Origin: a virus
Taxonomy: Duplodnaviria > Heunggongvirae > Uroviricota > Caudoviricetes
Virus record (IMG/VR): IMGVR_UViG_2617270964_000009
Strand: one strand, 5' to 3'
DNA length: 37,718 bases
The position numbers and the translations under genes are program-made. Position 1 is the stretch's first letter, and each line of letters begins with the position of its first letter. The notes beneath the pieces were generated by a model that saw nothing but the letters and a program-made list of their open reading frames with translations, searched no databases and was not told where the DNA came from. Below, piece by piece: positions 5,992-37,718 of the stretch.

Positions 5992-7142
5992 TTTTTCTTC
6001 TCCTTAATCACCGTCGATGTACTGCCATCCGGGTGATAAACCGTGAGTTTCTGAGTTTTTTGTTTTTTCCCTCTTGTGACTGGCCCCCGTGCCACTTCCA
6101 GCTCTGTGGTGTAGCCGCTGTTACGGTCAAACGCATGGCGGGCAGTGGTTATGAGCCATGGCCCGGATAACTGCCCAAAACCCACCAGTTCAATTTTGTT
6201 GCCTGCTGTCAGTTGAGGTGTTCCCGTCAGCGTCAGGGAGCCGTTCTGCTGGTATTCGTTATGTCTGGCCAGTGCTGAATCCGCTTTAATCCGGGCACTG
6301 TCCGGGTCGCTGACGCGGCTGTTAACTTTAAGTGAGTCAGCGCTGGTAACCTTACCACCTTTGAGCTTTTTGTCGCTTTCACGGGTACCACCATCAGCTT
6401 CGTAGACGATCAGTTTTTTACTGCTGCTTTTCTGGTGTTTTACCTTTGCAGATTTATAGACCCGATTGATGGTGTCACGCAGGGAAAAGCGGGCCACATC
6501 CTGCGGTTTTAACTGCCTGACCGGCTCCTGACTGCGCAGTGTGGCCAGATGAGAAAAAATCAGCTGGTCACTGACCACTTTCACTGCATAACCATACTCG
6601 CTGGCCAGCCGGCGCAGAAAACCCACGTCGGTTTCAGCATACTGGGTCACCCGGTCGATTCTGATGGACTCAATGCTGCCCACCAGTTTCAGTCGGTGCT
6701 TTCTGGCAATCCGCCCCGCAACAGCTGCCAGCGTGGTGTTCTCAAAACCACGACTGGTTTTAGTCCGCAGGGCACTGTTAACCGAGGTGGCCACCCCACG
6801 GATAGAAACAACGGAAGCGGGCGAACTCACTTCGATCTCGTCTATAGAGAACGTACCGCAGGACAGCAGCTTCTCGCCCTGATAGCCCATTTTCAGCGTC
6901 AGCGTGTCACCCTTGCCCGGATACCACTTATCCAGCCAGCGGCCATCGGTGTCGTCCAGCTCCACCTCAATGGTATCGGACTCATTTTTGATGTTATCGC
7001 TCCAGGTCACACGGGTGACATAAGGCGCGATATCAGAGGTGATGTTTTTCTGCAGATACCACAGAGTGAACACCGGTGTCAGCACATCGCTGACGCCGGT
7101 TAACGCTGATGTGACTTGCGCAGTGCTGTTTATCTCAGCCAT
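5988..7142 (-). CDS. Tail protein, Mu gp44(P) / P2 gpD-like (baseplate hub)
   Basis: 384 aa, close to the Mu P and P2 D sizes; sits between the tape-measure and spike genes. Confidence 0.7.
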   Translation of the reverse strand: MAEINSTAQVTSALTGVSDVLTPVFTLWYLQKNITSDIAPYVTRVTWSDNIKNESDTIEVELDDTDGRWLDKWYPGKGDTLTLKMGYQGEKLLSCGTFSIDEIEVSSPASVVSIRGVATSVNSALRTKTSRGFENTTLAAVAGRIARKHRLKLVGSIESIRIDRVTQYAETDVGFLRRLASEYGYAVKVVSDQLIFSHLATLRSQEPVRQLKPQDVARFSLRDTINRVYKSAKVKHQKSSSKKLIVYEADGGTRESDKKLKGGKVTSADSLKVNSRVSDPDSARIKADSALARHNEYQQNGSLTLTGTPQLTAGNKIELVGFGQLSGPWLITTARHAFDRNSGYTTELEVARGPVTRGKKQKTQKLTVYHPDGSTSTVIKEKKK

Positions 7143-25444: not shown

Positions 25445-26173
25445 ATGACGCACACACTGAATCCGGTCATCACTGTCACTGTGTCCGATCCTGTGGGCAG
25501 CGGTAAAAGTTACGTACTGGCGCGGATAGAAGAGATGGTGAAACAGGAACTCGGAAACAGCGTCATTGTCGATGCTGCTGACGTGGAGAATGAGCGCCGT
25601 ATGAATGGCGAAGATCTGACGACCTGGCAGAAGCCACGGGGTGGCACAGTGATCAGGCTGGAGGAATACACGGGACAGGGCCTGTTGTCATACGGCGAGG
25701 AGCGTATCTGTCGGACGAATGAGCTGCTGGATGTTATATGCCCCACGGGCCGGCAACCCTGGATACTGCCCGATGCACTGCATGCCACCATTGCGGCACT
25801 GATGACAGTTTACGATCAGGAGCTGCTCATGAAGGAGTTACGTAAACTCACCGGTCAGCCAACAGAATGTTGTTCGTCTCCGAAGTACGGCAAACAGGAA
25901 CACATCCCGATTAACCAGCCTCCCCGGTTCTTCGACGAATACCTTCTGACACCGGAAAATAAAGCTGAGCATGAAGAGATCAAAGCGGCGTTGTTCCGGG
26001 AAATCAGGAAGATTGCTGAAATGCAGTTGGGGGGCGGGCTGGACAGAGTGATGGCGAGAGGAGAATGGGCATCGCTGTTTGAAAGAGTTTCCCCGGAATT
26101 ACTTCCCCTCGCACTGGCTATCGGGATTATGCAGACAGCGGATAAACCTCACTTACGTTCATTAAACACGTAA
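25445..26173 (+). CDS. Hypothetical protein (242 aa) with a degenerate P-loop-like motif
   Basis: Strong RBS (GAGGAG, 7-nt spacing); N-terminal VTVSDPVGSGKSY resembles a Walker-A-like P-loop but is non-canonical; no other recognisable domain. Confidence 0.5.
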   Translation: MTHTLNPVITVTVSDPVGSGKSYVLARIEEMVKQELGNSVIVDAADVENERRMNGEDLTTWQKPRGGTVIRLEEYTGQGLLSYGEERICRTNELLDVICPTGRQPWILPDALHATIAALMTVYDQELLMKELRKLTGQPTECCSSPKYGKQEHIPINQPPRFFDEYLLTPENKAEHEEIKAALFREIRKIAEMQLGGGLDRVMARGEWASLFERVSPELLPLALAIGIMQTADKPHLRSLNT

Positions 26174-26553
26174 CGCATAATCCGGGATACGCATTCAGCG
26201 ATGACTGCATTTTCACCGGTTTTTACTGCATCCAGAAGTGACTCTTTAAATGGTACGGGCCGGGGCTGCAGAAAGGTCGGCATGGCATTGAGCAGACAGA
26301 GCGTTTTTTCCGTGAGGACGACATCAGCCGCTCCCACAGCCAGCAACTGAGAGTAACGAATATAGCTGTTATCCCGAAGCCATATCAGCGTATCAATAAA
26401 ACACCGGCACTTTTTCTGGTCGTGATCAACCTGGTCCGGGATATCGAAAAAACCAGAATAAATCAAAACCTGAGGTGCCGGATGCGTGTTCAGTAATCGG
26501 CAGAATATTTTGCCGGTGAGTACATAAAAATCATCATTTAAGGAGTGCATCAT
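26149..26553 (-). CDS. Hypothetical protein (134 aa)
   Basis: Starts ATGATG with GGGGA upstream; its 3' end overlaps the 242-aa ORF by 25 bp (convergent) and its start codon overlaps the 71-aa ORF start (divergent). Confidence 0.35.
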   Translation of the reverse strand: MMHSLNDDFYVLTGKIFCRLLNTHPAPQVLIYSGFFDIPDQVDHDQKKCRCFIDTLIWLRDNSYIRYSQLLAVGAADVVLTEKTLCLLNAMPTFLQPRPVPFKESLLDAVKTGENAVIAECVSRIMRYVFNERK

Positions 26554-26851: not shown

Positions 26852-26957
26852 TCATCGCCCCACAGGAATGCGCTGTGAGCCGACCAAGGTTCAGTCAGTC
26901 TCGCGAGACCTGACCAGACTGCCATATTTTTTAATAATTGTAAAAGGCTTACAGATT

Positions 26958-27725
26958 ATGAAAATGCAGACATTACCCATCGTGCCGTGGATTGGTGGCA
27001 AACGCCGCCTTGCAAAACACATTCTGCCGCTGTTTCCGGCGCATGAATGTTATGTGGAGCCGTTTTGTGGGGCAGCAGCGCTCTATTTTCTTAAGACACC
27101 CGGCAAGATCGAAGTCATCAATGATATCAACGGTGAACTGGTGAATCTGTACCGGGTGGTAAAGCATCACCTGGAAGAATTTGTCCGCCAGTTCAAATGG
27201 GCGCTGGTCAGCCGTCAGATCTACAAATGGCTGCAGATCACCCCGGAAGAAACACTGACGGATATCCAGCGTGCGGCACGGTTCTACTACCTCCAGAAGC
27301 AGGCGTTTGGTGGCAAGGTGGCAGAGCATAGTTTCGGCACCTCCACCACATCCCCGCCACGCTTCAACCTGCTGCGTATTGAGGAAGAGCTCTCAGCGGC
27401 ACACCTGCGACTTTCCAGAACGGTGATAGAACACATGGACTGGCAACAGTGCATTGAGCGTTATGACCGTCCGCACACGCTGTTCTACTGCGACCCACCG
27501 TACCTGGGTACGGAAGGCTATGGTGTGGATTTTCCTGAAGGGAACTACTCGCGGTTGGCAGAGCTGGCCCGTTGCATCAGAGGAAAGATGATTATATCGG
27601 TCAACGATATCCCGGAAATGCGGCAGGTTTTTAACGGTCTGAACATTCACTGTGTGAAGGTCAACTACAGTCTTGCAGGAAAGGGAACACTACGGCGCGA
27701 ACTTATTGTAAGTAATTTAGAGTAG
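26958..27725 (+). CDS. dam: DNA adenine methyltransferase, Dam/D12 class (N6-adenine)
   Basis: N-terminal PIVPWIGGKRRLAKHILPLFP, the AdoMet motif EPFCGAAALYF and the catalytic DPPY tetrapeptide (FYCDPPYLGTEGYG). Confidence 0.85.
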   Translation: MKMQTLPIVPWIGGKRRLAKHILPLFPAHECYVEPFCGAAALYFLKTPGKIEVINDINGELVNLYRVVKHHLEEFVRQFKWALVSRQIYKWLQITPEETLTDIQRAARFYYLQKQAFGGKVAEHSFGTSTTSPPRFNLLRIEEELSAAHLRLSRTVIEHMDWQQCIERYDRPHTLFYCDPPYLGTEGYGVDFPEGNYSRLAELARCIRGKMIISVNDIPEMRQVFNGLNIHCVKVNYSLAGKGTLRRELIVSNLE

Positions 27726-27750: not shown

Positions 27751-27782
27751 CATAACAATGCACCTGATGGTGCATTGTTATG
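27751..27782. terminator. Perfect 14-bp stem / 4-nt loop hairpin between convergent dam and the RexB-like gene
   Basis: cataacaatgcacc-tgat-ggtgcattgttatg; overlaps the stop codon of the minus-strand gene and is followed by a moderately T-rich stretch on the plus strand. Confidence 0.4.
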
Positions 27783-28215
27783 ATATCACTTTGATTATAT
27801 TGAATAATCGCCTACCTGTTTGTAATAAACACAACATAGACATAACAACAAGCCCAATGAGGATAGCGGCTACAATCTCTTGATGCTTACTTTGCAGCAT
27901 CAACCCAATCAAACATGTCAACACCAACACTAGCAAAACTAAGCAAGTGTAGAATGCATCGGTCATCAGACGCTTGTAATGTCCGGTTTTTTGCATGTTT
28001 TTAAGTAACGGTTTATCAAGCAATGATGCAAGTAGTGCAATTGCTGTAATAATAAAACCTAACAACGTTGCAAAGACACTGGACAATGTAGTCATGAAGT
28101 TTGGGATTGCGGCTACTGGCATATGGGGCAACTTGAACCAGTAGAGAAAACCAATCCCACATCCAATCAATAAACTAAGCAATAGGGCCGAGTTCATCTT
28201 CTCCAATATATGCAT
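27778..28215 (-). CDS. RexB-like four-TM membrane protein (about 145 aa)
   Basis: Start taken at ATG 28215 (GGGAGAG Shine-Dalgarno, 5-nt spacing); four hydrophobic helices; the TLSSVFATLLGFIITAIALL segment resembles lambda RexB TM2 as recalled from memory; last gene of the repressor operon; low GC. Confidence 0.55.
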   Translation of the reverse strand: MHILEKMNSALLLSLLIGCGIGFLYWFKLPHMPVAAIPNFMTTLSSVFATLLGFIITAIALLASLLDKPLLKNMQKTGHYKRLMTDAFYTCLVLLVLVLTCLIGLMLQSKHQEIVAAILIGLVVMSMLCLLQTGRRLFNIIKVIS

Positions 28216-29068
28216 TGATACTCTCCCGGTTTTCAGCATACGCAGTATCGATTAGACGGTACATGGTTTCGGCTGGAGGGAAACGAGCGTCAGTAACTAC
28301 CGATTGATAGGACGAAATACGCTCGGCAATCAAATCCACAGGATGGACAACACCATCAGCATCGAACACATCAATTACAGCCTTTTTCGCCCCAAACTCG
28401 ACTAACTCTTGCATAGCAAATTTTATATTCTGCTTAAGCCTACCATCACTATCGCCACGGCGAGTATTAATCCCCATTACAATTTGCATTGTATCGGCAC
28501 CTGCATCACCAAGCAGTTGTAGTGTCTTTTGACTGAAATCAGTATCAGGGTAAAACTCAGGATTACGGGGGCGAGGAATCGTCAACTGGATTTTTTTCAT
28601 TTTGACATCTCCTCTCATAAGCCTAGCGATTGCATCTTTTTCCAGCAAAGGTGCGGGCTTAACCTTTGAACCAAAGATAGTTGAAAGAAATGCACTAAAA
28701 CGGCTTATACCACAAGCCATATGATTATAGTGCCAACCTATAACATTGATTCGAGGATAGAATACAAAGAAATTGCGCTCAATGATCCCTTCATCCTTGG
28801 CAAGTGGAATAGGGGTAGACTGTTTCCCTGGTGCACCTTTATCCGGAATGTTCGAGTTGCGAAATTTTCTCAACTCTCCACTAAAAGAACCATCCGCGCG
28901 TTTTTTCAACCCCCAAATTTCTCTAGTAAAACCCTCATGGTTTGAAGAGGAAGGGCTCTGTTTATCAATTACAGATTGAAAAGCATCTCCGAGATTTGCC
29001 AGCTGATCTGTGGCCTTAAACGATAGCTGATGAAACTCAATACGATAATTTCTCACATCACCACTCAT
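28175..29068 (-). CDS. RexA-like protein (297 aa), partner of the membrane protein
   Basis: AAGGA Shine-Dalgarno; sits directly downstream of the CI-like repressor in the same orientation; size near lambda RexA (279 aa); low GC. Homology is unverified. Confidence 0.5.
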   Translation of the reverse strand: MSGDVRNYRIEFHQLSFKATDQLANLGDAFQSVIDKQSPSSSNHEGFTREIWGLKKRADGSFSGELRKFRNSNIPDKGAPGKQSTPIPLAKDEGIIERNFFVFYPRINVIGWHYNHMACGISRFSAFLSTIFGSKVKPAPLLEKDAIARLMRGDVKMKKIQLTIPRPRNPEFYPDTDFSQKTLQLLGDAGADTMQIVMGINTRRGDSDGRLKQNIKFAMQELVEFGAKKAVIDVFDADGVVHPVDLIAERISSYQSVVTDARFPPAETMYRLIDTAYAENRESINAYIGEDELGPIA

Positions 29069-29139
29069 ACGATTAATCCTTAACGCGGAAAGTTCAGATG
29101 GTTAGTGCAAACAGCACATCCTACTGTTTAAATCAGCGC

Positions 29140-29170
29140 ATATAACGAAGAGGTTTGATAACCTTGTCAA
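29140..29170 (-). promoter_or_regulatory. Candidate sigma70 promoter for the rexA/rexB-like genes (TTGACA-19 nt-TTATAT on the minus strand)
   Basis: Found in the 122-bp gap between the repressor stop and the rexA-like start; the spacer is 19 nt, which is long. Confidence 0.25.
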
Positions 29171-29190
29171 TTGTTCTCATTGGGAATAGA

Positions 29191-29607
29191 TTAACCCACA
29201 TTTTTTAACCGCTCAATCGTTGCGGATAATTCCTTCAGTTGTTTTTCCATCTCGATCACTCGCTGTTTTTCCGCAGCGCCTCGCAGAAGATCGTTACGAA
29301 CCTCGGGGTCTAGCTGCTTTAAAAGCTCAAGCATAGTAAGGTCAGCTTGGCTAAACTGCACTTGCGTCGGAGTTACGTCTACTTCTTTTGATAAACCTTG
29401 TTTTCTACCTGTTAGCAACCAATCTAAAGAAACCCCCTTTTCTTCTGCGATGTTTATGCAAATTGCATAAGGCACAGAATCACGCTTCCTCCAACTTGCA
29501 AGTGTCTGCCTATTGACGTTAAGCGCTCTTGCCAACTCACTATCATTCTCTGCTTGGAATAGTGACATTAACCGGGAAAGCACAGCGTTAACATCTTTGT
29601 TATTCAT
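29191..29607 (-). CDS. CI-like prophage repressor (HTH; no peptidase domain)
   Basis: SELARALNVNRQTLASWRKRDSVPYAICINIAEEKGVSLDWLLTG is the phage CI-repressor HTH signature; coiled-coil C-terminus; divergent from the ner-like gene. ATG at 29607 preferred over the track's upstream start at 29622. Confidence 0.75.
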   Translation of the reverse strand: MNNKDVNAVLSRLMSLFQAENDSELARALNVNRQTLASWRKRDSVPYAICINIAEEKGVSLDWLLTGRKQGLSKEVDVTPTQVQFSQADLTMLELLKQLDPEVRNDLLRGAAEKQRVIEMEKQLKELSATIERLKNVG

Positions 29608-29637
29608 TTTGCGTAATTCCACTTGATTTATTTATTT

Positions 29638-29657
29638 TGAATAAGTACATTTATTCA
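29638..29657. promoter_or_regulatory. Operator-like palindrome in the repressor/ner divergent control region
   Basis: tgaataa-gtacat-ttattca (perfect 7-bp arms); AGTACAT recurs 19 bp downstream at 29663-29669; the whole region is AT-rich. Confidence 0.3.
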
Positions 29658-29695
29658 TATTGAGTACATGATAACCCAACTGGAACTATCCGCAT

Positions 29696-29920
29696 ATGAA
29701 TAAACAACAAGTTCGGGCACGACTAGTTGAACGAGGCAGTAGCTTGCGCCAGTTCGCGCTTAACGCAGGCTATGAGCCACGAACAGTCACACAGGCAGTC
29801 AGTCGCTGGGCTGGTAAAAGTGAACTACCACGTGGTCGTTTGACTTATCGGATTTTGCGAGATCTATCGGTTGCAATAGGTAAAGAAGTTACCCCCGGTA
29901 TCCTTAAGGAGGTGTCATGA
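29696..29920 (+). CDS. ner: Ner-like DNA-binding protein (Cro analogue of Mu-like phages)
   Basis: 74 aa; SLRQFALNAGYEPRTVTQAVSRWAG matches the Ner family pattern; first gene of the rightward early operon, divergent from the repressor. Confidence 0.65.
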   Translation: MNKQQVRARLVERGSSLRQFALNAGYEPRTVTQAVSRWAGKSELPRGRLTYRILRDLSVAIGKEVTPGILKEVS

Positions 29921-30225
29921 ATAAACCAAATACATCAAGCGCAGGTACCCGTATTTTGCGTGTTCTTAAGGCGTTACGTGGCCACGCTCTGAACGGTATC
30001 TCCAACGGTGAACTGGCGGCAGCACTGCACGAGTCACCAGCAAACATTAATCGGGCACTCAACACCCTCATTGAAGAAGGGCTGGCCCTGAAACTGGAGA
30101 ATGGACGTTTTGCACCGGGCATCCAGTTACTGCAGATCGCCATGGCTCACAGTAACGAGATGGCACGAGCGCAGGATCGTATTAACGAAATCAACCAACG
30201 TGTCATTTCAGGTAGTCGTTTATAA
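29917..30225 (+). CDS. Putative winged-helix DNA-binding protein (102 aa)
   Basis: AAGGAGG Shine-Dalgarno; start overlaps the ner stop; GISNGELAAALHESPANINRALNTLIEEGLA looks like an HTH. Confidence 0.45.
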   Translation: MNKPNTSSAGTRILRVLKALRGHALNGISNGELAAALHESPANINRALNTLIEEGLALKLENGRFAPGIQLLQIAMAHSNEMARAQDRINEINQRVISGSRL

Positions 30226-30235
30226 GGAGTAATCA

Positions 30236-31147
30236 ATGGGACGTACCAAATCACCAATGTCCACTGATCTGAATGCTGAGGTGCCGCTGTCTGATGATCT
30301 CAACATCAGTCTTAATACCATGGCACAACACCGCGTGGAGATCATGCAGCAGTTCGGCGATGGTCTGCCTTATGAACGTGATCGCATTGTTCACGAAGCA
30401 CGCTTTTATATGGCACAAAGTGCTGAGGCCATGCTAGAGGCAGGTAAACGACTGATAATACTGAAAGAAAATGAACCACATGGTGATTTCATAAATATTG
30501 TCGAGTCTGAATTATCAATGTCAAAGCGTACTGCACAGGTAATGATGCAGGCATCAATAAAATATTTATCACCACAACTTGAGTCAAAAGCGCAGACGTT
30601 TGCGCTTTTAGGAAAAGCCAAATTATTCGAGTTAATGACGGAAGACGATGAAAACCTTGCCGAACTGGCTGATGGTGGCACTGTTGCCGGCCTGACGCTT
30701 GACGACGTTGATCGCATGTCAGTACGCGAACTTCGCCAGGCCCTGCGCGAAGCGCGCGAAACCAACGCAGCACAACAGCGCGTACTCGCCGATAAAAATG
30801 AAAAAATTGATTCTCTCTCTACCAGACTGGAAAAGAAATCCCGTATTCAGCCGCCTGAGCCTGATGAGGAGGTTAAGAAGCTGCGGGCGGAAGTGACAGC
30901 ATTAGCGGTTGAGGCGGAATCTGCTATCGCCGTCCGACTGTCCAGCGCTTTTGAGACACTGTGCGCATATTGTGCTGAAAACATGATTGATACCCCCAGA
31001 GACTTCATGGCAGGCCTGGTCTGTCAACTGGAAAGCACAGCGCGTAGCCTGCGCTCCACATTTGACCTGCCGGACGAGCCAACAGGCAATGCAGCGCCTT
31101 CATGGCTGACTGAGCCGACGCCACAGATTAACGGGCTGGAGGCATAA
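30236..31147 (+). CDS. Hypothetical early protein (303 aa), acidic with coiled coil
   Basis: AGGAG Shine-Dalgarno; immediately upstream of the transposase; no recognisable catalytic motif. Confidence 0.45.
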   Translation: MGRTKSPMSTDLNAEVPLSDDLNISLNTMAQHRVEIMQQFGDGLPYERDRIVHEARFYMAQSAEAMLEAGKRLIILKENEPHGDFINIVESELSMSKRTAQVMMQASIKYLSPQLESKAQTFALLGKAKLFELMTEDDENLAELADGGTVAGLTLDDVDRMSVRELRQALREARETNAAQQRVLADKNEKIDSLSTRLEKKSRIQPPEPDEEVKKLRAEVTALAVEAESAIAVRLSSAFETLCAYCAENMIDTPRDFMAGLVCQLESTARSLRSTFDLPDEPTGNAAPSWLTEPTPQINGLEA

Positions 31148-31150
31148 CCA

Positions 31151-32920
31151 ATGAATGCTGCCCTGACTGAACGACTGGTTTATGTCGCCCGCGCGGCACG
31201 TGACGCGGGGCATGGTAAACGCGGTGCAATATACGACGCTGCCTGTGCTGAACTTGGCATGTCCCGCGCCACTCTGCTGCGCAGGCTGAAGGAGGTCTCT
31301 GTGACTGATAAACGCAAAAAACGCGCCGATGCCGGGCGCAGCGCCCTGACCCGCGACGAAGCCGCGCTGATATCTGCCACACTGCGTGAGGCCACCCGCA
31401 AGAACGGTAAGCGTCTCTATTCCATCGCGGATGCAGTGGAAACCCTGCGGGCTAACGGCTTTATCTCCGCAGGCAGAACAGATGAAACCACCGGTGAGTT
31501 TTTCCCGTTGTCCGAAGATGCCATCAGCCGTGCCCTGCGTAACTATGGCCTGCACCCGGAACAACTGGATGCCCCTGCGCCGCATACCGAAGTGGCCAGT
31601 CTGCATCCCAATCATGTCTGGCAGATTGATGCCTCGCTCTGCACGCTTTACTACCTGAGCAATGGACACAAAGGGCTGCAGGTGATGGACAGCGCGAAAT
31701 TCTACAAGAACAAGCCCGCTAACCTTGCCCGTATCGCCAGTGACCGCGTGTGGAGTTATGAGATTACCGACCATGCCAGCGGCTGGATTTACGTTGAGTA
31801 TGTGACGGGTGCGGAATCCGGTGAGAACCTGTGTTCTGTGCTTATCAACGCCATGCAGGAGCGTGGCGGCGCAGACGTGCTGCACGGCGTGCCAAAAATA
31901 CTCTATCTCGACCCCGGCTCGGCAAACACCGCGGGTATGACGAAAAACATGTGCCGCTCACTGGGCATTGACCTGATAGCGCACAAGCCGCATAACGCCC
32001 GCGCCACCGGACAGGTGGAAAAGGCGCGAGACATTATCGAACGCAAGCTGGAGCCGGGTCTGAAGTTCCGGCCGGTTCACAGTCTGGAAGAACTCAACGC
32101 GCTGGCCGCGAAATGGCGCAGCCACTTTAACGCCACGGCTGTTCACAGCCGCCACGGTAAAACCCGCACGGATATCTGGCTGAAGATTACTACTGAGCAG
32201 CTGAAAAAAGCGCCTTCCGTTGAGGTATGTCGTGAACTGGCTGTGGCGGCACCAGAACTCCGCAAAGTCACGCCAAAACTTCGTGTCTCGTTCCGGGGCA
32301 CTGAATTTGACGTATCAACGGTACCGGGCGTACTGGTCGGTGAAAAACTGATGATTACCCGTAACCCGTGGCGCAGCGATGTGGCACAGGTGGTTCTGAC
32401 CGGTGAGGACGGCCACGAGACGTTCTTCCTGGTCGAAGAGGTCAGAAAGAACGAGTTTGGCTTTGCTGAAGGCGCGGCGGTATTTGGCGAAAGTTACAAA
32501 GCCCTGCCGGAAACACCGGCGCAGACGGCGGCAAAAGAAACTGAAGCGCTGGTCACCGGTACAGACAACGCCACAGATGCAGCTGTCGCACGCAAGGCGA
32601 AGGCGCTGCCGTTCGGCGGGCGGCTTGACCCGTATAAACATATTGATGACGCCACACTTCCGGCCTATATGCCGAAGCGCGGTCAGGCCTCTGACGTACG
32701 CGGGCCGCGCACTGAACAACGTCCCATGACTCATGTGGAGGCCGCGAAAGCCCTGCGCGATAAGTTCAGCGCCGACGGCCTTACCTGGACGCCGGAACAT
32801 TACCGCCAGTTAACGGCACAGTACCCGGACGGCGTACCGGAAGCCGCACTGGATGAAGTCATGGCCACGCTGACCACACCGGCCCGCAGCAGTGTTATCA
32901 GCATTGTTAACGGCAACTGA
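31151..32920 (+). CDS. DDE transposase (Mu A / TnsB / rve-superfamily)
   Basis: Candidate DDE triad: D in VWQIDAS, D in ILYLDPGSAN, E about 35 aa later in ATGQVEKARD; followed by an AAA+ ATPase gene as in MuA-MuB; GGAGG Shine-Dalgarno. Confidence 0.75.
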   Translation: MNAALTERLVYVARAARDAGHGKRGAIYDAACAELGMSRATLLRRLKEVSVTDKRKKRADAGRSALTRDEAALISATLREATRKNGKRLYSIADAVETLRANGFISAGRTDETTGEFFPLSEDAISRALRNYGLHPEQLDAPAPHTEVASLHPNHVWQIDASLCTLYYLSNGHKGLQVMDSAKFYKNKPANLARIASDRVWSYEITDHASGWIYVEYVTGAESGENLCSVLINAMQERGGADVLHGVPKILYLDPGSANTAGMTKNMCRSLGIDLIAHKPHNARATGQVEKARDIIERKLEPGLKFRPVHSLEELNALAAKWRSHFNATAVHSRHGKTRTDIWLKITTEQLKKAPSVEVCRELAVAAPELRKVTPKLRVSFRGTEFDVSTVPGVLVGEKLMITRNPWRSDVAQVVLTGEDGHETFFLVEEVRKNEFGFAEGAAVFGESYKALPETPAQTAAKETEALVTGTDNATDAAVARKAKALPFGGRLDPYKHIDDATLPAYMPKRGQASDVRGPRTEQRPMTHVEAAKALRDKFSADGLTWTPEHYRQLTAQYPDGVPEAALDEVMATLTTPARSSVISIVNGN

Positions 32921-32930
32921 GGAGGGAAAC

Positions 32931-34097
32931 ATGCTGGTACTGAAGCAGCAACTGAAAGAGGCCCGTATTCCACAGGCGGTGGTGGCGAGAGCTGTCGATG
33001 TTTCTGAGGCCACGCTGGCCCAGATTGTGAATCATAACGCGTGGCCCCGCACCAGCCCCGGAGAAGTGCGCCGGCGTCTTGCGTCCTGGCTGGAAAGTCA
33101 GGGGATTGATACAACGAAGAGTTTTGATGCTGTACAGGGCGCGGCCACGCCCCGTACAGCGGGTACCACAGATAAAACGAGCCTCAGTGAGGAAGAGAAT
33201 ATGTTACTCAAAAAACAGGTGTTATTTCCAGCAACCAAAAAAGCGTTTGGTCTTTTCCGTGACCCGTTCGCCGACGAAGCCATGCAGGGTTCTGATGATG
33301 TGTTCACCACCCCGGATATTCGCTACGTGCGTGAGGCGTTGTACCAGACAGCCCGTCATGGTGGGTTTATGGCCGTCATCGGTGAGTCCGGTGCGGGTAA
33401 ATCCACGCTGCGCCGCGACCTGACTGAACGTATCAACCGCGAGAATGCGCCGGTAATTGTTATCGAGCCATACATCATCGCTATGGAAGACAACGATGTG
33501 AAAGGGAAAACCCTGAAGGCAGCAGCGATTGCCGAAGCCATTATCAGTACCATCGCACCACTGGAAAGCATCAGACGCAGTCAGGACGCCCGCTTTCGCC
33601 AGTTGCATCGCGTCCTGAAAGACAGCAGCCAGGCGGGGTTCAGCCACGTTCTGGTGATTGAGGAGGCCCACAGTCTGCCCATTCCGACACTGAAACACCT
33701 CAAACGCTTTTTTGAGCTGGAGTCCGGTTTCAAAAAACTGCTGTCCATCGTGCTGATTGGCCAGCCGGAACTGGCGACAAAACTGTCTGAACGCAATATG
33801 GAAGTCCGTGAAGTCGTTCAGCGCTGTGAGGTGGTCGAACTTCTGCCTCTGGACAATAACCTTGAAGAGTTTCTGACGTTCAAACTGCAACGGGCCGGTA
33901 AACAACTGACGGACATTATGGACGCCAGCGCAGTGGATGCCATACGTGCCCGCCTGAGCAATCCGGGAAGTCATCGTAAAAATATGGTCAGCCTGCTGTA
34001 TCCGCTGGCCGTCAGTAACCTGGTAATAGCCGCCATGAATCTGGCCGCTGAAATCGGGGTTCCACAGGTCAACGCTGACGTTGTCAAAGGGGTTTAA
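32931..34097 (+). CDS. Transposition ATPase (Mu B analogue; TniB/ExeA-type AAA+)
   Basis: Walker A in VIGESGAGKSTL and Walker-B-like VLVIEEAH; start at ATG 32931 with a GGAGGG Shine-Dalgarno. Confidence 0.75.
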   Translation: MLVLKQQLKEARIPQAVVARAVDVSEATLAQIVNHNAWPRTSPGEVRRRLASWLESQGIDTTKSFDAVQGAATPRTAGTTDKTSLSEEENMLLKKQVLFPATKKAFGLFRDPFADEAMQGSDDVFTTPDIRYVREALYQTARHGGFMAVIGESGAGKSTLRRDLTERINRENAPVIVIEPYIIAMEDNDVKGKTLKAAAIAEAIISTIAPLESIRRSQDARFRQLHRVLKDSSQAGFSHVLVIEEAHSLPIPTLKHLKRFFELESGFKKLLSIVLIGQPELATKLSERNMEVREVVQRCEVVELLPLDNNLEEFLTFKLQRAGKQLTDIMDASAVDAIRARLSNPGSHRKNMVSLLYPLAVSNLVIAAMNLAAEIGVPQVNADVVKGV

Positions 34098-34099
34098 TA

Positions 34100-34369
34100 A
34101 TGAAATCCACCACAGGTATCAACCAGCAAATCAGCAAAGTGCAGTCAGCCATTATGGCGCTTAAGGCGACGAACACGGATGTACAAAGCATCACCATCAG
34201 GGGTAACAAACCTGTCATCCGCGTTTCCCGGAGTGCGCATTGCATGCGCATGCTTGAGCAGGGAAAGGCCTGTTATCTGTATACCGGTCATGACCACAGG
34301 GGACATTTCCGTCAGGGCGTTTTCGAACTGCACGGCTGTCGCGTCGTGTGGCCGGAATCTTTGTGGTAA
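34100..34369 (+). CDS. Hypothetical early protein (89 aa)
   Basis: Good RBS; translationally coupled to the upstream ATPase; no recognisable motif. Confidence 0.4.
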   Translation: MKSTTGINQQISKVQSAIMALKATNTDVQSITIRGNKPVIRVSRSAHCMRMLEQGKACYLYTGHDHRGHFRQGVFELHGCRVVWPESLW

Positions 34370-34396
34370 TCAGCACAACAGGAGGAGTCATAAAAT

Positions 34397-34927
34397 ATGG
34401 CAAAAAGTACAAAAGGGGCAAAACGTATCAAAGCCGCAGCAGCACTCTGGGTGCCGGGGACACGCGAAGAGGTCATTGAGGGAATCAGACTGCTTGGTGA
34501 CGCGCAACGTGAACTGGTCAGGGCTGAAACAGAAATGAATGACACCATTGGCGACATCACTGCACGTTATGCCCCGCTCACCGAGAGCCTGAAAAAACGC
34601 ATGGCCGAACTGCAGTCCGGTATCCAGACATGGTGTGAGGCGCACCGTGATGAACTGACCGGCAACGGGAAGGTGAAGTTCGCTAACCTCACCACCGGCG
34701 AGGTGCAGTGGCGAAACCGTCCGCCATCAGTCAGTATCCGTGGGGCGGATAATGTTATTGAATTACTGAGACGTCTGGGGCTTGAGCGCTTTATTCGTGT
34801 AAAAGAGGAAATAAATAAAGACGCTATCCTGAATGAAAAAGAGGCCGTGAAAAATATTCCCGGTATTTCCATTAAAAGCGACATTGAGGATTTTTCAATA
34901 ATTCCTTTTGAGCAGGATGTGCAGTAA
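34397..34927 (+). CDS. gam: Host-nuclease inhibitor protein Gam (Mu Gam family)
   Basis: 176 aa; MAKSTKGAKRIKAAAALWVP...NRPPSVSIRGADNVIELLRRLGLERFIRVKEEINKDAIL...IEDFSIIPFEQ is nearly colinear with Mu Gam (174 aa) as recalled from memory. Confidence 0.85.
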   Translation: MAKSTKGAKRIKAAAALWVPGTREEVIEGIRLLGDAQRELVRAETEMNDTIGDITARYAPLTESLKKRMAELQSGIQTWCEAHRDELTGNGKVKFANLTTGEVQWRNRPPSVSIRGADNVIELLRRLGLERFIRVKEEINKDAILNEKEAVKNIPGISIKSDIEDFSIIPFEQDVQ

Positions 34928-35024
34928 ACACACCACGTTAATTATTTAATAAAAACATTTTCTTTTTTATTCCGGCGTCAGCGCCGTGGGCTTCTGCACG
35001 CCGGAAACAGAGGAGAATTAAATT

Positions 35025-35219
35025 ATGATATTTAAATGTATTCAGTGCGAGAGGGATATAACAGCCCTGCGTTTTCACAGCGCCATCGCCGTGATGTCCG
35101 GTAAATACCACATCCCTGCGGTACGCGTCACCCTGGTCTGTCCGTACTGCAGCCAGCATTTTTCGGCGGACGTGCCCGTCATGGAATTCTCCCGCCCTGA
35201 CAGGGAGGACGCGCAATGA
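35025..35219 (+). CDS. Small zinc-ribbon protein (CxxC...CxxC), 64 aa
   Basis: Cysteine pairs C5/C8 and C39/C42; GAGGAG Shine-Dalgarno. Confidence 0.45.
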   Translation: MIFKCIQCERDITALRFHSAIAVMSGKYHIPAVRVTLVCPYCSQHFSADVPVMEFSRPDREDAQ

Positions 35220-35488
35220 TTACCCCACAGGAAGCACGACAGCGCACCCGAACCCTTGTTGAACACTATGTCAACGAGTGTGAATGCCGCGACCTCACCG
35301 ATGTGAAGCACGTCCTGACGGCGTTAATCAGCATGGCCGCTCAGGCCATTGTGGCAACCAACGGAAAGGCGGCTGCCCTGCAGGTACTGATGAACACACT
35401 CACCCACACGGCAGAGCACGAGGTGCCGTACCGGGTGGAAACCACTGCAGAAGGCGGCCTGAACATCACCGTCGACCGGAAACACTGA
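35216..35488 (+). CDS. Hypothetical early protein (90 aa)
   Basis: ATGA start/stop overlap with the upstream gene; no recognisable motif. Confidence 0.4.
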   Translation: MITPQEARQRTRTLVEHYVNECECRDLTDVKHVLTALISMAAQAIVATNGKAAALQVLMNTLTHTAEHEVPYRVETTAEGGLNITVDRKH

Positions 35489-35497
35489 GGGCGCGGC

Positions 35498-35803
35498 ATG
35501 ACACGGAACACCGAACTCACCCGCACCGCCCTCTACCGTCTGGCCCTGCAGCGTTTCGGTCCGGATGCACAGGCCCTGAAACTGACAGAAGAGGCCGCTG
35601 AACTGGCGGCCAGTGCTGCCCGCAACCTGAACGGACAGGGCAGCGAAAGTGACCTCGCGGCAGAGCTGGCAGACGTGGAAATCATGACAGAGCAGCTGCG
35701 CCTTCAGGGGATGGACCGGCTGATTGACTTCCACAAACAGAAAAAACTGGAACGCCTTGCCGCACGGCTGGGCGTCATGTACACCGGAGATACTGAACAA
35801 TGA
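35498..35803 (+). CDS. MazG-like nucleotide pyrophosphohydrolase domain protein (101 aa)
   Basis: TEEAAELAASAAR ... SDLAAELADVEIMTEQL matches the paired EExxE / ExxD metal-binding helices of the MazG/HisE all-alpha NTP-PPase fold; GAGGG Shine-Dalgarno. Confidence 0.5.
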   Translation: MTRNTELTRTALYRLALQRFGPDAQALKLTEEAAELAASAARNLNGQGSESDLAAELADVEIMTEQLRLQGMDRLIDFHKQKKLERLAARLGVMYTGDTEQ

Positions 35804-36483
35804 CAGACCAGGATAAACACATTGAGAAACTGAAAAAGTTGCTGGCGCTGGCCGCATCCGGCAACCCTCACGAGGCCGCTCTGGCACTGCGCCGCGCCCG
35901 TAAACTGATGGATGTTCACGGCATCACACATTCCGACATCGCCATGAGTGATATTGATGAAACCATCAGTCACTACTGGCCGACAGGCAGCCTCCGTCCG
36001 CCGCGCTACATGCAGGGCCTGATGAACATCATCCGCGAGGCATTTGGTGTTAACTCCATCATTCACCCCGGCACATATCCGGGTGTGGGGTTCTACGGCA
36101 ACCGGGAACGGGCCGCACTGGCCGCGTACACCTGGGAAGTGCTGGCCCGTCAGCTGAAAAAGGCGCGTCAGCAGTATATCAGTGCACAGAACAAAAGAAT
36201 AAAAACCGCCACCCGCACCAGCCGTGGAGACCAGTTTGCTGAAGGCTGGGTGCTGGCCGTTATCAGTGAAATACAGTCCTTCGCCTTGACCGATGACGAA
36301 CGTGAACTGATGCAGCAGTGGCTGGAACATAAATACCCGCAGACGCAAACCACCAGGGCGCGTAAACCGGGAAGAAGTCGCAATGGCGACGCCTCGCGCT
36401 ATGCGGGGTTTCGAGAAGGGCAGAACGTCAGACTGCACCGACCGGTCAGTGGGCGGGAACAGCAGAAACTGGAGGCCAGATGA
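35800..36483 (+). CDS. Hypothetical early protein (227 aa), DUF2786-like N-terminus
   Basis: N-terminal HIEKLKKLLALAASGNPHEAALALRRARKLMDVHGI motif; start overlaps the upstream stop; preferred over the antisense ORF 35704..36438. Confidence 0.45.
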   Translation: MTDQDKHIEKLKKLLALAASGNPHEAALALRRARKLMDVHGITHSDIAMSDIDETISHYWPTGSLRPPRYMQGLMNIIREAFGVNSIIHPGTYPGVGFYGNRERAALAAYTWEVLARQLKKARQQYISAQNKRIKTATRTSRGDQFAEGWVLAVISEIQSFALTDDERELMQQWLEHKYPQTQTTRARKPGRSRNGDASRYAGFREGQNVRLHRPVSGREQQKLEAR

Positions 36484-36710
36484 TTACGTTATCAGGTAAC
36501 AGCCGGAAATTAAAAGCCTGCCGAATATCTGCCAGATACCTTTTTGCCCGCGCCTTTTTTAAGAACGTCAGGCCGGGGATCACAATTGGTGTTATTGCCG
36601 GACGCGAACAGGTTGAAAAATACATGTCAGGTGCATGGTGGAATAAAGACCCTGTCATTGCTGCCCGTAATATTCATATCAGTTGGGGGGATATTCAGAA
36701 TGACGGCTGA
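36480..36710 (+). CDS. Hypothetical small protein (76 aa)
   Basis: GGAGG Shine-Dalgarno; translationally coupled. Confidence 0.35.
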   Translation: MITLSGNSRKLKACRISARYLFARAFFKNVRPGITIGVIAGREQVEKYMSGAWWNKDPVIAARNIHISWGDIQNDG

Positions 36711-36915
36711 ATCTGTTGTATGTGCCCTGTTCTGGTATTGTTTTGTCGGTTGGTGTACTGCTGAACTGCACCGCCGTTCAGGGTTTTATTCACGTTACAG
36801 TGGTGCCGGTTACTGGATTAGCTGGTCGGTGATGTTCCTGTGCTGGCCTGTGGCACTTCCTTTATATGTCGATTATATCGGTGATGCAGGCAGAAGGAGC
36901 AACGATGATGACTAA
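36700..36915 (+). CDS. Small membrane protein (71 aa)
   Basis: Start ATG 36700 after a GGGGG Shine-Dalgarno; two hydrophobic helices (VVCALFWYCFVGWCT, ISWSVMFLCWPVALPLYV). Confidence 0.4.
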   Translation: MTAESVVCALFWYCFVGWCTAELHRRSGFYSRYSGAGYWISWSVMFLCWPVALPLYVDYIGDAGRRSNDDD

Positions 36916-37357
36916 ACAACGTCTTATCCAGCTCATTCATATTGCCCGTAATGAACTGGGTATGGATGAAGACAGCTACCGCCAGATGTTACAGGGGCTG
37001 ACCGGTAAAGCCTCAACCAAAGGAATGGATACCACACAACTAAACTGCGTGCTGGAATCCATGAAAAGGAAAGGCTTTCGCGTTAAGCCTGCCGGAAAAG
37101 CCAGCTCCGGTTTACCGCTGGATAACCATCCGCAGTCCAGGAAAATCCGTGCGCTATGGCTTGAAATGGCTGCTGCCGGCATTGTTCGTGACCGTTCAGA
37201 AAATGCATTAGCGCGGTGGATCAAGCGGGAAACGGGCATCAGCGCCCTGCGCTGGCTCAATACTGAACAGGCAAGCAGTGTTATTGAGAAACTGAAGAAG
37301 TGGCAGCGCAGAGCTGCGGGAGTAAAACATGAGCGACCTGAATCAGTTTCGAAGTAA
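36905..37357 (+). CDS. gemA: GemA-like regulatory protein (Mu gp16 family)
   Basis: KQRLIQLIHIARNELGMDEDSYRQMLQGLTGKAS...QLNCVLESMKRKGF follows the GemA N-terminal pattern; AGGAG Shine-Dalgarno; immediately precedes mor. Confidence 0.65.
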   Translation: MMTKQRLIQLIHIARNELGMDEDSYRQMLQGLTGKASTKGMDTTQLNCVLESMKRKGFRVKPAGKASSGLPLDNHPQSRKIRALWLEMAAAGIVRDRSENALARWIKRETGISALRWLNTEQASSVIEKLKKWQRRAAGVKHERPESVSK

Positions 37358-37718
37358 AGGGCCGGAACTCCTGGTGGAACTGGCACAGCATACCTCTGAG
37401 ACCGTTCGCGAGATTATTGATATTGAGCCCGCAATTGCCGACCAGATTGGTCAGGCCGTCGCGAACCGCATGATGCAGGTCTGGGGCGGGCAAAACGTTT
37501 ATTTCCCGATGGGCATGGTATGGAAGGTCAGTCAGCGCGATCGGGAAATCTTCAGGGAGTTTAACGGACGTAACCACCATGAACTGGCCCGCAAATTTGG
37601 TGTTTCGCTTCAGTGGGTCTACAGCGTGGTTAAGCGGGTAAGAAAAGAAGAACTGGATCGGATGCAGGGCAAGCTATTTGCTGATGAACCCGATGTAGAT
37701 ACGGAGAAAAAAGAGTAA
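37329..37718 (+). CDS. mor: Mor-like middle-operon transcriptional activator (Mor/C family)
   Basis: C-terminal GGQNVYFPMG...FNGRNHHELARKFGVSLQWVYSVVKR matches the Mor/C HTH region; GGGAG Shine-Dalgarno; the window ends at its stop codon. Confidence 0.8.
   Translation: MSDLNQFRSKGPELLVELAQHTSETVREIIDIEPAIADQIGQAVANRMMQVWGGQNVYFPMGMVWKVSQRDREIFREFNGRNHHELARKFGVSLQWVYSVVKRVRKEELDRMQGKLFADEPDVDTEKKE

What the first reader, a model, noticed from the sequence alone, without database searches (positions are those of the whole stretch)
34100..36915. Semi-essential-region cluster of small early ORFs, including a zinc ribbon, as anti-defence candidates
Between the transposition ATPase and gemA lie eight tightly coupled small ORFs (64-227 aa). 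Gam, a known RecBCD inhibitor, is one; the others include a CxxC...CxxC zinc ribbon, a DUF2786-like protein and a small two-helix membrane protein, none with an assigned function. In Mu-like phages this region holds non-essential host-interaction genes and is a likely reservoir of anti-defence factors.
Basis: inference. Interest (0 to 1): 0.45.

Follow-up and report, generated by a model that had tools for sequence, protein, structure and literature searches.

The report
Mu-like prophage semi-essential early genes
This is the ordinary "semi-essential" early gene block of a common Mu-like transposable prophage of E. coli; two of its "unknown" genes can now be named, and only two of the eight genes have any support for a role against host defences.

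Summary
Eight tightly packed + strand ORFs (64-227 aa) lie between the transposition ATPase and gemA. All eight are annotated in RefSeq and all are under purifying selection.

The window is a whole BcepMu-like transposable prophage. This cassette occurs at >=95% identity in about 12% of complete E. coli genomes.

What each ORF is:
- o1 is a remote homologue of Mu Kil and sits in the same position after B.
- o2 is Gam, 61% identical to Mu Gam.
- o3 is a zinc ribbon with four conserved cysteines.
- o5 is a MazG-like all-alpha NTP pyrophosphohydrolase with its metal-binding motif intact.
- o6 (DUF2786+DUF7168) belongs to an uncharacterised family found in many kinds of phage.
- o4, o7 and o8 remain unknown.

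Across 69 related prophages, o1, o3, o6 and o8 form a backbone. Gam (swapped with DUF3164), o4, o5 and o7 vary, and there is a hot slot between o5 and o6.

No ORF matches a known anti-defence family. Only Gam and the MazG-like enzyme have precedents. The anti-defence reading is therefore plausible but only partly supported.

The most interesting by-product is a conserved U-tract and hairpin element after gam. It is shared with Mu and is predicted to mask the next gene's ribosome-binding site.

The parts
32931..34097 (+). Upstream flank: B-type transposition ATPase (ExeA/AAA_22)
   Evidence: Pfam AAA_22 E = 3.8e-20 and phrog_296 'DNA transposition protein' E = 1.5e-93. PGAP start as.
34100..34369 (+). 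o1, 89 aa, basic (pI 9.9). PGAP calls it 'HI_1482 family'. Remote homologue of Mu Kil.
   Evidence: phrog_2041 E = 1e-36. The Kil families phrog_6381 (E = 0.023) and phrog_2743 (E = 0.21) are the 2nd and 4th best of 38,880 and align almost full length. hhalign of a 71-sequence profile against a Mu Kil alignment gives probability 70%, P = 4.1e-5, over 69 columns. It sits directly after B, as kil does in Mu. Distant members sit next to B-type ATPases in other Mu-like elements.
34397..34927 (+). o2, Gam: a Ku-like DNA-end-binding protein and host nuclease (RecBCD) inhibitor
   Evidence: PF07352 E = 1.9e-40 and phrog_491 E = 6.7e-73. 61% identity to Mu Gam over 169 aa.
34957..35016 (+). Conserved non-coding element. 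It comprises a U-rich tract (34958-34968), a 15-bp imperfect hairpin (stem arms 34970-34978 and 34998-35006, GUG loop), AAACAG, and the Shine-Dalgarno sequence of o3 (35009-35015).
   Evidence: It is nearly invariant where the flanking genes are 30-56% identical, or non-homologous upstream. It occurs once per contig in 61 viral contigs. Mu has the homologous element after gam. RNA fold is -29.5 kcal/mol, z = -5.1. 95% of cells are paired and 3 pairs change on both sides. The SD is predicted to be paired with the U-tract. There is no Rfam hit and no U-run after the stem.
35025..35219 (+). o3, 64 aa zinc ribbon (CxxC...CxxC). Backbone gene, function unknown.
   Evidence: phrog_3401 E = 1.2e-40. 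All four Cys are kept in 33 of 34 distinct homologues down to 28% identity; L046 has lost one. Present in 66 of 69 cassettes. dN/dS 0.21.
35216..35488 (+). o4, 90 aa, unknown. Variable gene with an invariant ISMAxQAIVATNG core.
   Evidence: phrog_3691 E = 3.3e-54. Present in 42 of 69 cassettes. It is the most diverged ORF: 41% aa identity and dN/dS 0.42.
35498..35803 (+). o5, 101 aa MazG-like all-alpha NTP pyrophosphohydrolase. Its last 5-6 residues come from a deleted neighbouring gene (junction at 35783/35784).
35800..36483 (+). o6, 227 aa, DUF2786 + DUF7168, very basic (pI 10.1, net charge +12). Backbone gene, function unknown.
36480..36710 (+). o7, 76 aa, basic, unknown. Accessory gene.
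   Evidence: phrog_3681 E = 1.9e-53. Present in 34 of 69 cassettes. dN/dS 0.20. No PDB match.
36700..36915 (+). o8, 71 aa, two hydrophobic Trp/Cys-rich segments (probable small membrane protein), unknown.
   Evidence: phrog_6436 E = 2e-15. Conserved WCTAELHR...WP..LPL motifs. Present in 65 of 69 cassettes. dN/dS 0.13. Two allelic forms at 40% identity exist within E. coli prophages.
36908..37357 (+). Downstream flank: GemA (gp16 family)
   Evidence: PF06252 E = 2.3e-40. 35% identity to Mu GemA.
37329..37718 (+). Downstream flank: Mor-type transcription activator, the last gene before the prophage end
   Evidence: BLASTP to Mu Mor 1e-14 and to Mu C 1e-13. Host genes follow about 160 nt later in two genomes, at different chromosomal sites.

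Best explanation
The block is the semi-essential early region of a BcepMu-like transposable prophage. I infer that it is transcribed with the transposition genes A and B from the early promoter, as one rightward operon ending in gemA and mor.

It is a host-takeover and DNA-protection module, not a dedicated anti-defence island. It holds:
- o1, a Kil-type host killing or division-inhibitor protein.
- o2, Gam, which caps linear phage DNA ends against RecBCD.
- o3, a zinc-ribbon protein.
- o5, a MazG-like pyrophosphohydrolase that would hydrolyse a nucleoside triphosphate or alarmone-type nucleotide.
- o6, a strongly basic DUF2786/DUF7168 protein that is probably nucleic-acid-associated.
- o8, a small membrane protein.
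- o4 and o7, two accessory ORFs of unknown function.

A conserved U-tract and hairpin element after gam splits the block in two. It probably holds the ribosome-binding site of the next gene in a stem, so that the distal genes are translated, or their mRNA stabilised, under separate control.

Shown here: gene calls, family memberships, conservation pattern and predicted folds. Inferred: co-transcription, every biochemical activity, and the role of the hairpin.
For: - **Identity of the element.** The closest phage is Escherichia phage PhiKM, a Bcepmuvirus (96.5% identity over 94% of the region). 640 of 5426 complete E. coli genomes carry the cassette, 619 over at least 80% of its length. Insertion sites differ between genomes.
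- **Operon layout.** All genes are on one strand with overlapping or near-abutting boundaries, and there is no terminator-like site beyond chance.
- **Gam**.
- **Kil homology**, with synteny.
- **MazG-like fold and motif**.
- **Backbone versus variable genes.** Among 69 complete cassettes, o1 is present in 68, o3 in 66, o8 in 65, o5 in 58, o4 in 42, Gam in 39 (otherwise DUF3164) and o7 in 34.
- **Faster divergence inside the block.** Interior ORFs are 41-69% identical where B is 94% and GemA 86%.
- **Hairpin**.
- **Background.** Mu's semi-essential genes are described as largely of unknown function (PMC3820752, read).
Against: - Five of the eight products (o3, o4, o6, o7, o8) still have no assignable activity.
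- The Kil link is remote: 19% identity and 70% hhalign probability.
- The KH-like resemblance of o6 is weak and lacks the GXXG motif.
- The hairpin shows little variation, so covariation support is thin. Several E. coli alleles carry single mismatches in the stem.
- No expression data were available.
Confidence: 0.6

Rival explanations
1. One reading: the block is mainly a reservoir of anti-defence genes. At least one ORF besides Gam (most likely o5, o4 or o7) directly neutralises a host immune system. For o5 the mechanism would be hydrolysis of an alarmone or signalling nucleotide, as reported for the phage MazG-like protein Atd1.
For: - Gam(Mu) blocks RecBCD, and a Gam homologue was reported to counter Sir2+HerA and DUF4297+HerA (papers read).
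- Atd1 is the precedent for MazG-like enzymes.
- o4, o5 and o7 are patchily distributed.
- The slot between o5 and o6 gains and loses small ORFs. In relatives it holds a second all-alpha NTP pyrophosphohydrolase, PF04447.
- Interior genes diverge much faster than the flanks.
Against: - There are no sequence or fold matches to any solved anti-defence protein.
- dN/dS is below 0.5 everywhere, so there is no sign of positive selection at this resolution.
- Within E. coli the cassette is almost fixed, with 29-31 of 31 cassettes holding each ORF.
- MazG-like phage enzymes have other proposed roles, such as dNTP pool sanitising or recycling.
- No dedicated anti-defence HMM library was available.
Confidence: 0.25
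2. The conserved backbone genes (o3, o6, perhaps o8) are auxiliary replication or transposition factors, comparable to the 'arm' (amplified replication of Mu) phenotype mapped to Mu's semi-essential region. They would act on phage DNA or RNA rather than on host immunity.
For: - o6 is strongly basic (+12) with a beta-alpha-beta-beta-alpha core whose nearest solved folds are KH nucleic-acid-binding domains.
- o6 is kept between Gam/DUF3164 and GemA in Mu-like phages of Escherichia, Pseudomonas and Ralstonia and in an uncultured element.
- o3 is a zinc ribbon, a common nucleic-acid-binding module, with near-invariant cysteines.
Against: - Mu itself has no detectable o3 or o6 counterpart.
- o6 relatives also occur in non-transposable lytic and jumbo phages and in a non-Mu prophage.
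- The KH similarity is weak and the GXXG loop is absent.
Confidence: 0.3
3. The conserved block after gam is not a regulatory RNA. It would be a recombination 'linker' whose conservation simply reflects recent module exchange (Gam swapped with DUF3164) at that point, or a DNA-level protein-binding palindrome.
For: - The upstream gene is swapped exactly at this block, Gam in some prophages and DUF3164 in others.
- The loop sequence is as conserved as the stem.
- Several alleles tolerate a stem mismatch.
Against: - Mu keeps a hairpin at the same place with a partly different stem sequence and the same flanking U-tract and AAACAG.
- There is a C-G to U-A double change between host groups.
- Folding energy is far below shuffles, z = -5.1.
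- Predicted anti-SD pairing persists although the SD sequences differ.
Confidence: 0.3

Closest known systems
Semi-essential (SE) early region of Escherichia phage Mu (kil through gemA/mor, Mup05-Mup17)
   Same: - The position and orientation match: the block lies after A and B and ends in GemA and Mor.
- It shares Gam (61% identity), GemA (35%), Mor (31%) and a remote Kil homologue directly after B.
- It shares a roughly 97-98-nt gap after gam that holds the homologous U-tract/hairpin/AAACAG element.
   Different: - Mu has no detectable counterpart of o3, o4, o5, o6, o7 or o8.
- Conversely, Mu's gp6-gp9 and gp11-gp15 are absent here.
- This prophage has the BcepMu layout: late genes lie on the opposite strand and Mor is at the genome end.
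Escherichia phage PhiKM (PQ738613, Bcepmuvirus) and the related E. coli prophages
   Same: 96.5% nucleotide identity over 94% of the region, with the same gene order.
   Different: - PhiKM has an extra 71-aa membrane ORF between o5 and o6. The window lost it through a 220-bp deletion that fused its last codons to o5.
- PhiKM carries a different o8 allele (40% identity).
- o3 is not annotated in PhiKM; an opposite-strand ORF is called there instead.
MazG / HisE all-alpha NTP pyrophosphohydrolases, including the phage anti-defence protein Atd1
   Different: - o5 is a minimal 101-aa single domain confined to Enterobacterales prophages.
- It falls below Pfam thresholds.
- Its substrate is unknown.
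- Its relation to Atd1 beyond the superfamily level was not tested.
Mu Com/mom translational control (a zinc-finger protein opening an mRNA stem that masks a start site)
   Same: A small CxxC...CxxC protein (o3) is encoded next to a conserved stem predicted to mask a ribosome-binding site.
   Different: - o3 is not a Com homologue. There is no PF10122 hit, and hhalign matches only one zinc knuckle at 17% probability.
- In Mu the gene after the homologous hairpin is not a zinc finger.
- This is an analogy only.

Membership tests
Phage Mu Gam (PF07352) | Profile match above the curated threshold and close similarity to Mu Gam | tested here: met
   138.7 bits against a cut-off of 28.3. 61% identity to Mu Gam over 169 aa.
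Phage Mu Gam (PF07352) | Binding of double-stranded DNA ends and protection from RecBCD | not testable with these tools
   Biochemical property. Inferred from homology and from the literature read.
Mu Kil family (phrog_2743 / phrog_6381) | Detectable sequence homology to Mu Kil | tested here: inconclusive
   - hhalign gives 70% probability, P = 4.1e-5, over 69 of 74 Kil residues with a deep profile.
- PHROG E-values are only 0.023 and 0.21.
- The shared C-terminal motif is GC(R/Q)(V/I)(V/I)W.
- The result is suggestive but below usual family thresholds.
Mu Kil family (phrog_2743 / phrog_6381) | Small early gene located right after the B transposition ATPase | tested here: met
   o1 starts 2 nt after the B stop. 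Mu kil follows B. Distant o1 relatives lie beside B-type ATPases.
Mu Kil family (phrog_2743 / phrog_6381) | Host killing or septation inhibition on expression | not testable with these tools
   This needs an expression experiment.
MazG-like all-alpha NTP pyrophosphohydrolase superfamily | All-alpha fold shared with MazG, HisE and dimeric dUTPase | tested here: met
MazG-like all-alpha NTP pyrophosphohydrolase superfamily | Metal-binding motif ExxE-(12-28 residues)-ExxD | tested here: met
   E32-A-A-E35, then 20 residues, then E56-L-A-D59. E32, E56 and D59 are unchanged in all 17 sequences of alignment A3, and E35 is changed or missing in 2 of them. 2 of the 30 locus-derived homologues carry an E-to-K change in the motif. 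The motif definition is from my own knowledge of the family.
MazG-like all-alpha NTP pyrophosphohydrolase superfamily | Curated Pfam or NCBIfam model hit above threshold | tested here: not met
   The best Pfam hit is PRA-PH at 14.9 bits against a cut-off of 21.3. There is no NCBIfam hit. Only PHROG phrog_2245 is strong.
Atd1-type anti-defence MazG | (p)ppGpp hydrolysis and rescue from TIR-effector toxicity | not testable with these tools
   Functional assays are described in 10.1101/2022.06.09.495361.
DUF2786 / DUF7168 | Both Pfam models above the gathering score | tested here: met
   43.0 bits against 23.9, and 92.0 bits against 25.5.
KH domain (considered for the o6 core) | beta-alpha-alpha-beta-beta-alpha fold with a GXXG loop | tested here: not met
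Mu Com zinc finger (considered for o3) | Homology to Com (PF10122) | tested here: not met
   No Pfam hit at E <= 0.1. hhalign gives 17% probability over 18 columns covering one CxxC knuckle.
Known anti-defence protein families | Sequence or fold match to a characterised anti-defence protein | tested here: not met
   - There were no PDB sequence hits at E <= 1 for o1, o3, o4, o5, o6, o7 or o8 apart from chance-level ones.
- A dedicated library such as AntiDefenseFinder or dbAPIS was not available, so this test is incomplete.
Intrinsic terminator (considered for the hairpin after gam) | G+C-rich stem followed by a U-run on the transcribed strand | tested here: not met
   The T-run precedes the stem on the + strand and AAACAG follows it. 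On the - strand an A-run follows. The terminator scan does not report it.
Rfam RNA families (hairpin after gam) | Covariance-model match | tested here: not met
   No match at E <= 1 in 29000-37718.

The most novel reading that the evidence does not exclude
Two readings remain open.

(a) The DUF2786/DUF7168 protein o6 belongs to a family found in temperate, lytic and jumbo phages of Gram-negative and Gram-positive hosts, with no known function. It could be a broadly used factor that binds nucleic acid or a conserved host component to disarm a common host response.

(b) The U-tract/hairpin/SD element conserved from Mu to BcepMu-like phages could be a gated translational switch, opened by temperature or by a protein. 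It would time expression of the distal semi-essential genes, in the manner of Com/mom.
Probability: 0.15. Interest if true: 0.55.

Novelty: new member of a known kind. Interest (0 to 1): 0.3.

Why it matters
About one in eight complete E. coli genomes carries this cassette, so its genes are expressed in many clinical and commensal strains on induction. If the Mu precedent holds, they may also be expressed at a low level in lysogens.

This work narrows the candidates worth testing:
- o5 is an enzyme with testable substrates.
- o1 should give a killing or cell-shape phenotype.
- The variable slot between o5 and o6 is a place to look for exchanged accessory genes.

It also flags backbone genes that are less likely to be defence-specific.

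The hairpin after gam is shared with Mu, one of the best-studied phages. It is a cheap target for reporter experiments and could explain how the distal early genes are set apart from A, B, kil and gam.

None of this changes the general picture of Mu-like early regions.

Tried and rejected
- **PADLOC and NCBIfam scans of all eight ORFs.** There were no hits. PADLOC models defence systems, not anti-defence, so this says little.
- **PDB sequence searches.** Searches with single sequences and with profiles for o1 and o3-o8 gave nothing meaningful.
- **o6 against solved folds.** Only weak KH-like and helical-hairpin similarity was found. I rejected KH membership because there is no GXXG loop and one helix is missing.
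- **afdb50 fold library.** It was not available.
- **o3 as a Com-like regulator.** Rejected at the sequence level.
- **o3 against Mu gp6 and gp13.** Only zinc-knuckle matches of 9-17 columns.
- **o4, o5, o6, o7, o8 against all Mu early proteins.** No similarity.
- **Hairpin as an intrinsic terminator, a promoter or an Rfam family.** Not supported.
- **Literature on DUF2786, DUF7168 and phrog_421.** No functional study was found.
- **Single-linkage clustering of locus ORFs.** It merged B with o1 and o3 with o5 because of fused ORF calls in a few loci. I re-derived the presence counts by BLAST with a coverage filter.


Full report
**What the window is.** The 37.7-kb window is a complete BcepMu-like transposable prophage.
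- A Gin-type invertase (1-573, - strand), tail and head genes, holin and transglycosylase are on the - strand.
- A low-GC cargo stretch (25.4-29 kb) holds an orphan Dam-like methyltransferase (26868-27725).
- A CI-type repressor lies at 29191-29622 on the - strand.
- A rightward early operon follows: Ner-like HTH, DUF3102, transposase A, B-type ATPase, the eight small ORFs, GemA and Mor.
- Mor ends at the last base of the window. In two RefSeq genomes host genes resume about 160 nt later, at different chromosomal sites, as expected for a transposable phage.
- The closest isolated phage is Escherichia phage PhiKM, a Bcepmuvirus (96.5% identity over 94% of the region).
- The 2.8-kb region is found in 640 of 5426 complete E. 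coli genomes, mostly at 95-99% identity.

**Checking the observation.** The eight ORFs are real, and their coordinates equal the PGAP calls.
- Their boundaries are typical of translationally coupled genes. There are three ATGA overlaps, an 11-nt overlap, an 8-nt overlap and spacers of 2, 9 and 27 nt. The one 97-nt gap lies after gam.
- All eight match PHROG families (E = 2e-15 for o8, 1e-34 to 1e-76 for the other seven).
- Against relatives at about 65% identity, dN/dS is 0.13-0.42 for the six small ORFs that could be scored. o1's synonymous sites are saturated and Gam was not compared.
- The four cysteines of the zinc ribbon are kept in 33 of 34 distinct homologues.
- o8 has two conserved hydrophobic segments, although its hydropathy is borderline.
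- One statement needs correcting. o5 does have an assigned family: PGAP and PHROGs call it a nucleoside triphosphate pyrophosphohydrolase.

**Gene by gene.**
- **o2** is Gam (PF07352, E = 1.9e-40; 61% identical to Mu Gam).
- **o1** (PGAP: 'HI_1482 family') occupies the position of Mu kil, directly after B.
  - Its second and fourth best PHROG matches out of 38,880 are the two Mu Kil families, aligned almost end to end (E = 0.023 and 0.21).
  - I built a profile from 71 representatives found by an exhaustive HMM search. It aligns to a Mu Kil alignment with hhalign probability 70% and P = 4.1e-5 over 69 of Kil's 74 residues. The two share an (R/K)P-x-I strand and the C-terminal GC(R/Q)(V/I)(V/I)W motif.
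  - Distant members of the o1 family sit beside B-type ATPases in other Mu-like elements.
  - I therefore read o1 as a remote Kil homologue. The phenotype is untested.
- **o5** is a minimal MazG-like enzyme.
  - The evidence is phrog_2245 at E = 3.8e-34 and an AF2 model of three helices with pLDDT 82.5.
  - The motif E32xxE35...E56xxD59 is near-invariant: E32, E56 and D59 never change in the 17-sequence alignment, and a few family members carry single changes.
  - It does not reach any Pfam threshold, and the family is confined to Enterobacterales.
  - Its last residues (…TGDTEQ) come from a neighbouring 71-aa gene still present in PhiKM. A 220-bp deletion with a short microhomology removed that gene and kept the reading frame and the ATGA overlap with o6.
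- **o6** carries DUF2786 and DUF7168.
  - Its AF2 model is confident (pLDDT 85.8). It shows an N-terminal helical hairpin, a beta-alpha-beta-beta-alpha core and further helices.
  - The viral structure library returns 30 significant but uncharacterised relatives. They come from Sinorhizobium, Delftia, Serratia, Tenacibaculum, Gordonia, Mycobacterium and Bacillus phages, among others.
  - tBLASTn finds it in 178 phage records, mostly Pseudomonas and Ralstonia Mu-like phages. It also occurs in a non-Mu prophage of Komagataeibacter.
  - The protein is very basic (+12).
- **o3, o4, o7 and o8** gave no informative match anywhere.

**Comparative genomics of the cassette.** Eighty loci were retrieved through o6, of which 69 hold the whole B-to-GemA interval.
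- Presence counts are: o1 68, o3 66, o8 65, o5 58, o4 42, Gam 39 and o7 34. o6 is present by construction.
- Where Gam is missing, a DUF3164 protein (PF11363, E = 7e-80) sits in its place.
- The interval between o5 and o6 is a hot slot. It is empty here, holds one ORF in PhiKM and two in strain MS20655. In other enterics it holds, among others, a PF04447 dATP/dGTP pyrophosphohydrolase.
- Interior genes are far more diverged (41-69% amino-acid identity) than B (94%), o8 (87%) and GemA (86%) in the same pair of elements.
- Mu itself shares only Kil (remotely), Gam, GemA and Mor.

**A conserved non-coding element.** The 97-nt gap after gam holds a U-rich tract, a 15-bp imperfect hairpin and the sequence AAACAG just before the Shine-Dalgarno sequence of o3 (34957-35016).
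- It is nearly invariant in prophages whose o3 is only 30-56% identical and whose upstream gene is not even homologous.
- It occurs once per contig in 61 viral contigs.
- Mu has the homologous element in its own 98-nt gap after gam, with a partly different stem.
- The fold is much more stable than shuffles (z = -5.1).
- 95% of cells pair, and three pairs show changes on both sides. These include a C-G to U-A switch between host groups.
- In most variants, Mu included, the U-tract is predicted to pair with the ribosome-binding site of the next gene.
- It is not an intrinsic terminator, not a consensus promoter and not in Rfam.
- I read it as a probable translational or mRNA-stability element that sets the distal genes apart. 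A recombination linker or a DNA palindrome remain possible.
- The idea that o3 acts on it like Com on mom has no sequence support.

**Interpretation.** The block is an ordinary member of a known kind: the semi-essential early region of Mu-like phages, whose genes are described as largely of unknown function (PMC3820752).
- The anti-defence reading is reasonable for Gam. Gam is an end-binding RecBCD antagonist, and it is also reported to license Gabija and to affect other systems.
- The reading has a precedent for MazG-like enzymes in Atd1, reported in a preprint.
- For the other six ORFs there is no evidence either way.
- The conservation pattern argues that o1, o3, o6 and o8 are backbone functions rather than shuffled counter-defence cargo.
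- Direct tests are listed under next steps.

Noticed in passing
window 34957-35016 (+); also Mu NC_000929 about 6345-6405 (L003): A U-tract, 15-bp hairpin and AAACAG element lies in the gap after gam. Its nucleotide sequence is conserved far better than the flanking genes, and phage Mu has the homologous element. It is predicted to sequester the Shine-Dalgarno sequence of the next gene. It is not a terminator and is not in Rfam.
   Followed up: partly
related loci, e.g. L043 4496-5107; L136 5785-6414: In about 30 of 69 related prophages the Gam gene is replaced, at the same position, by a non-homologous DUF3164 protein (PF11363). This suggests DUF3164 is a functional stand-in for Gam.
   Followed up: partly
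window 35783/35784; PhiKM L001 7686-7904: The window lacks a 71-aa membrane ORF that PhiKM and many E. coli prophages have between o5 and o6. A 220-bp deletion at a short microhomology fused that ORF's last codons onto o5. Other genomes carry one or two extra ORFs in this slot.
   Followed up: yes
window 26868-27725 (+), with unknown ORFs at 25445-26173 (+), 26149-26553 (-), 27778-28239 (-), 28175-29068 (-): The low-GC cargo region between the lysis genes and the repressor holds an orphan Dam-like D12 adenine methyltransferase (PADLOC MTase_II, E = 1e-112). It also holds four ORFs that have only unknown-function PHROG matches. This is a more obvious place to look for anti-restriction or defence cargo than the early block.
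   Followed up: partly
window 36738-36914 (o8) compared with PhiKM L001 8822-9028: Two allelic forms of the small membrane protein o8, only about 40% identical, circulate among otherwise 95-99% identical E. coli prophages. In a few loci o7 is replaced by an unrelated 135-aa ORF (x19).
   Followed up: no
window 1-573 (-): A Gin/Hin-type serine invertase sits at the left end next to the tail-fibre genes. This implies an invertible host-range segment, as in Mu.
   Followed up: no
related loci L051 5507-5998, L055, L058: Some relatives carry a second all-alpha NTP pyrophosphohydrolase (PF04447, dATP/dGTP pyrophosphohydrolase) in the slot next to the MazG-like gene, or in place of it. Nucleotide hydrolases therefore recur at this position.
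   Followed up: partly
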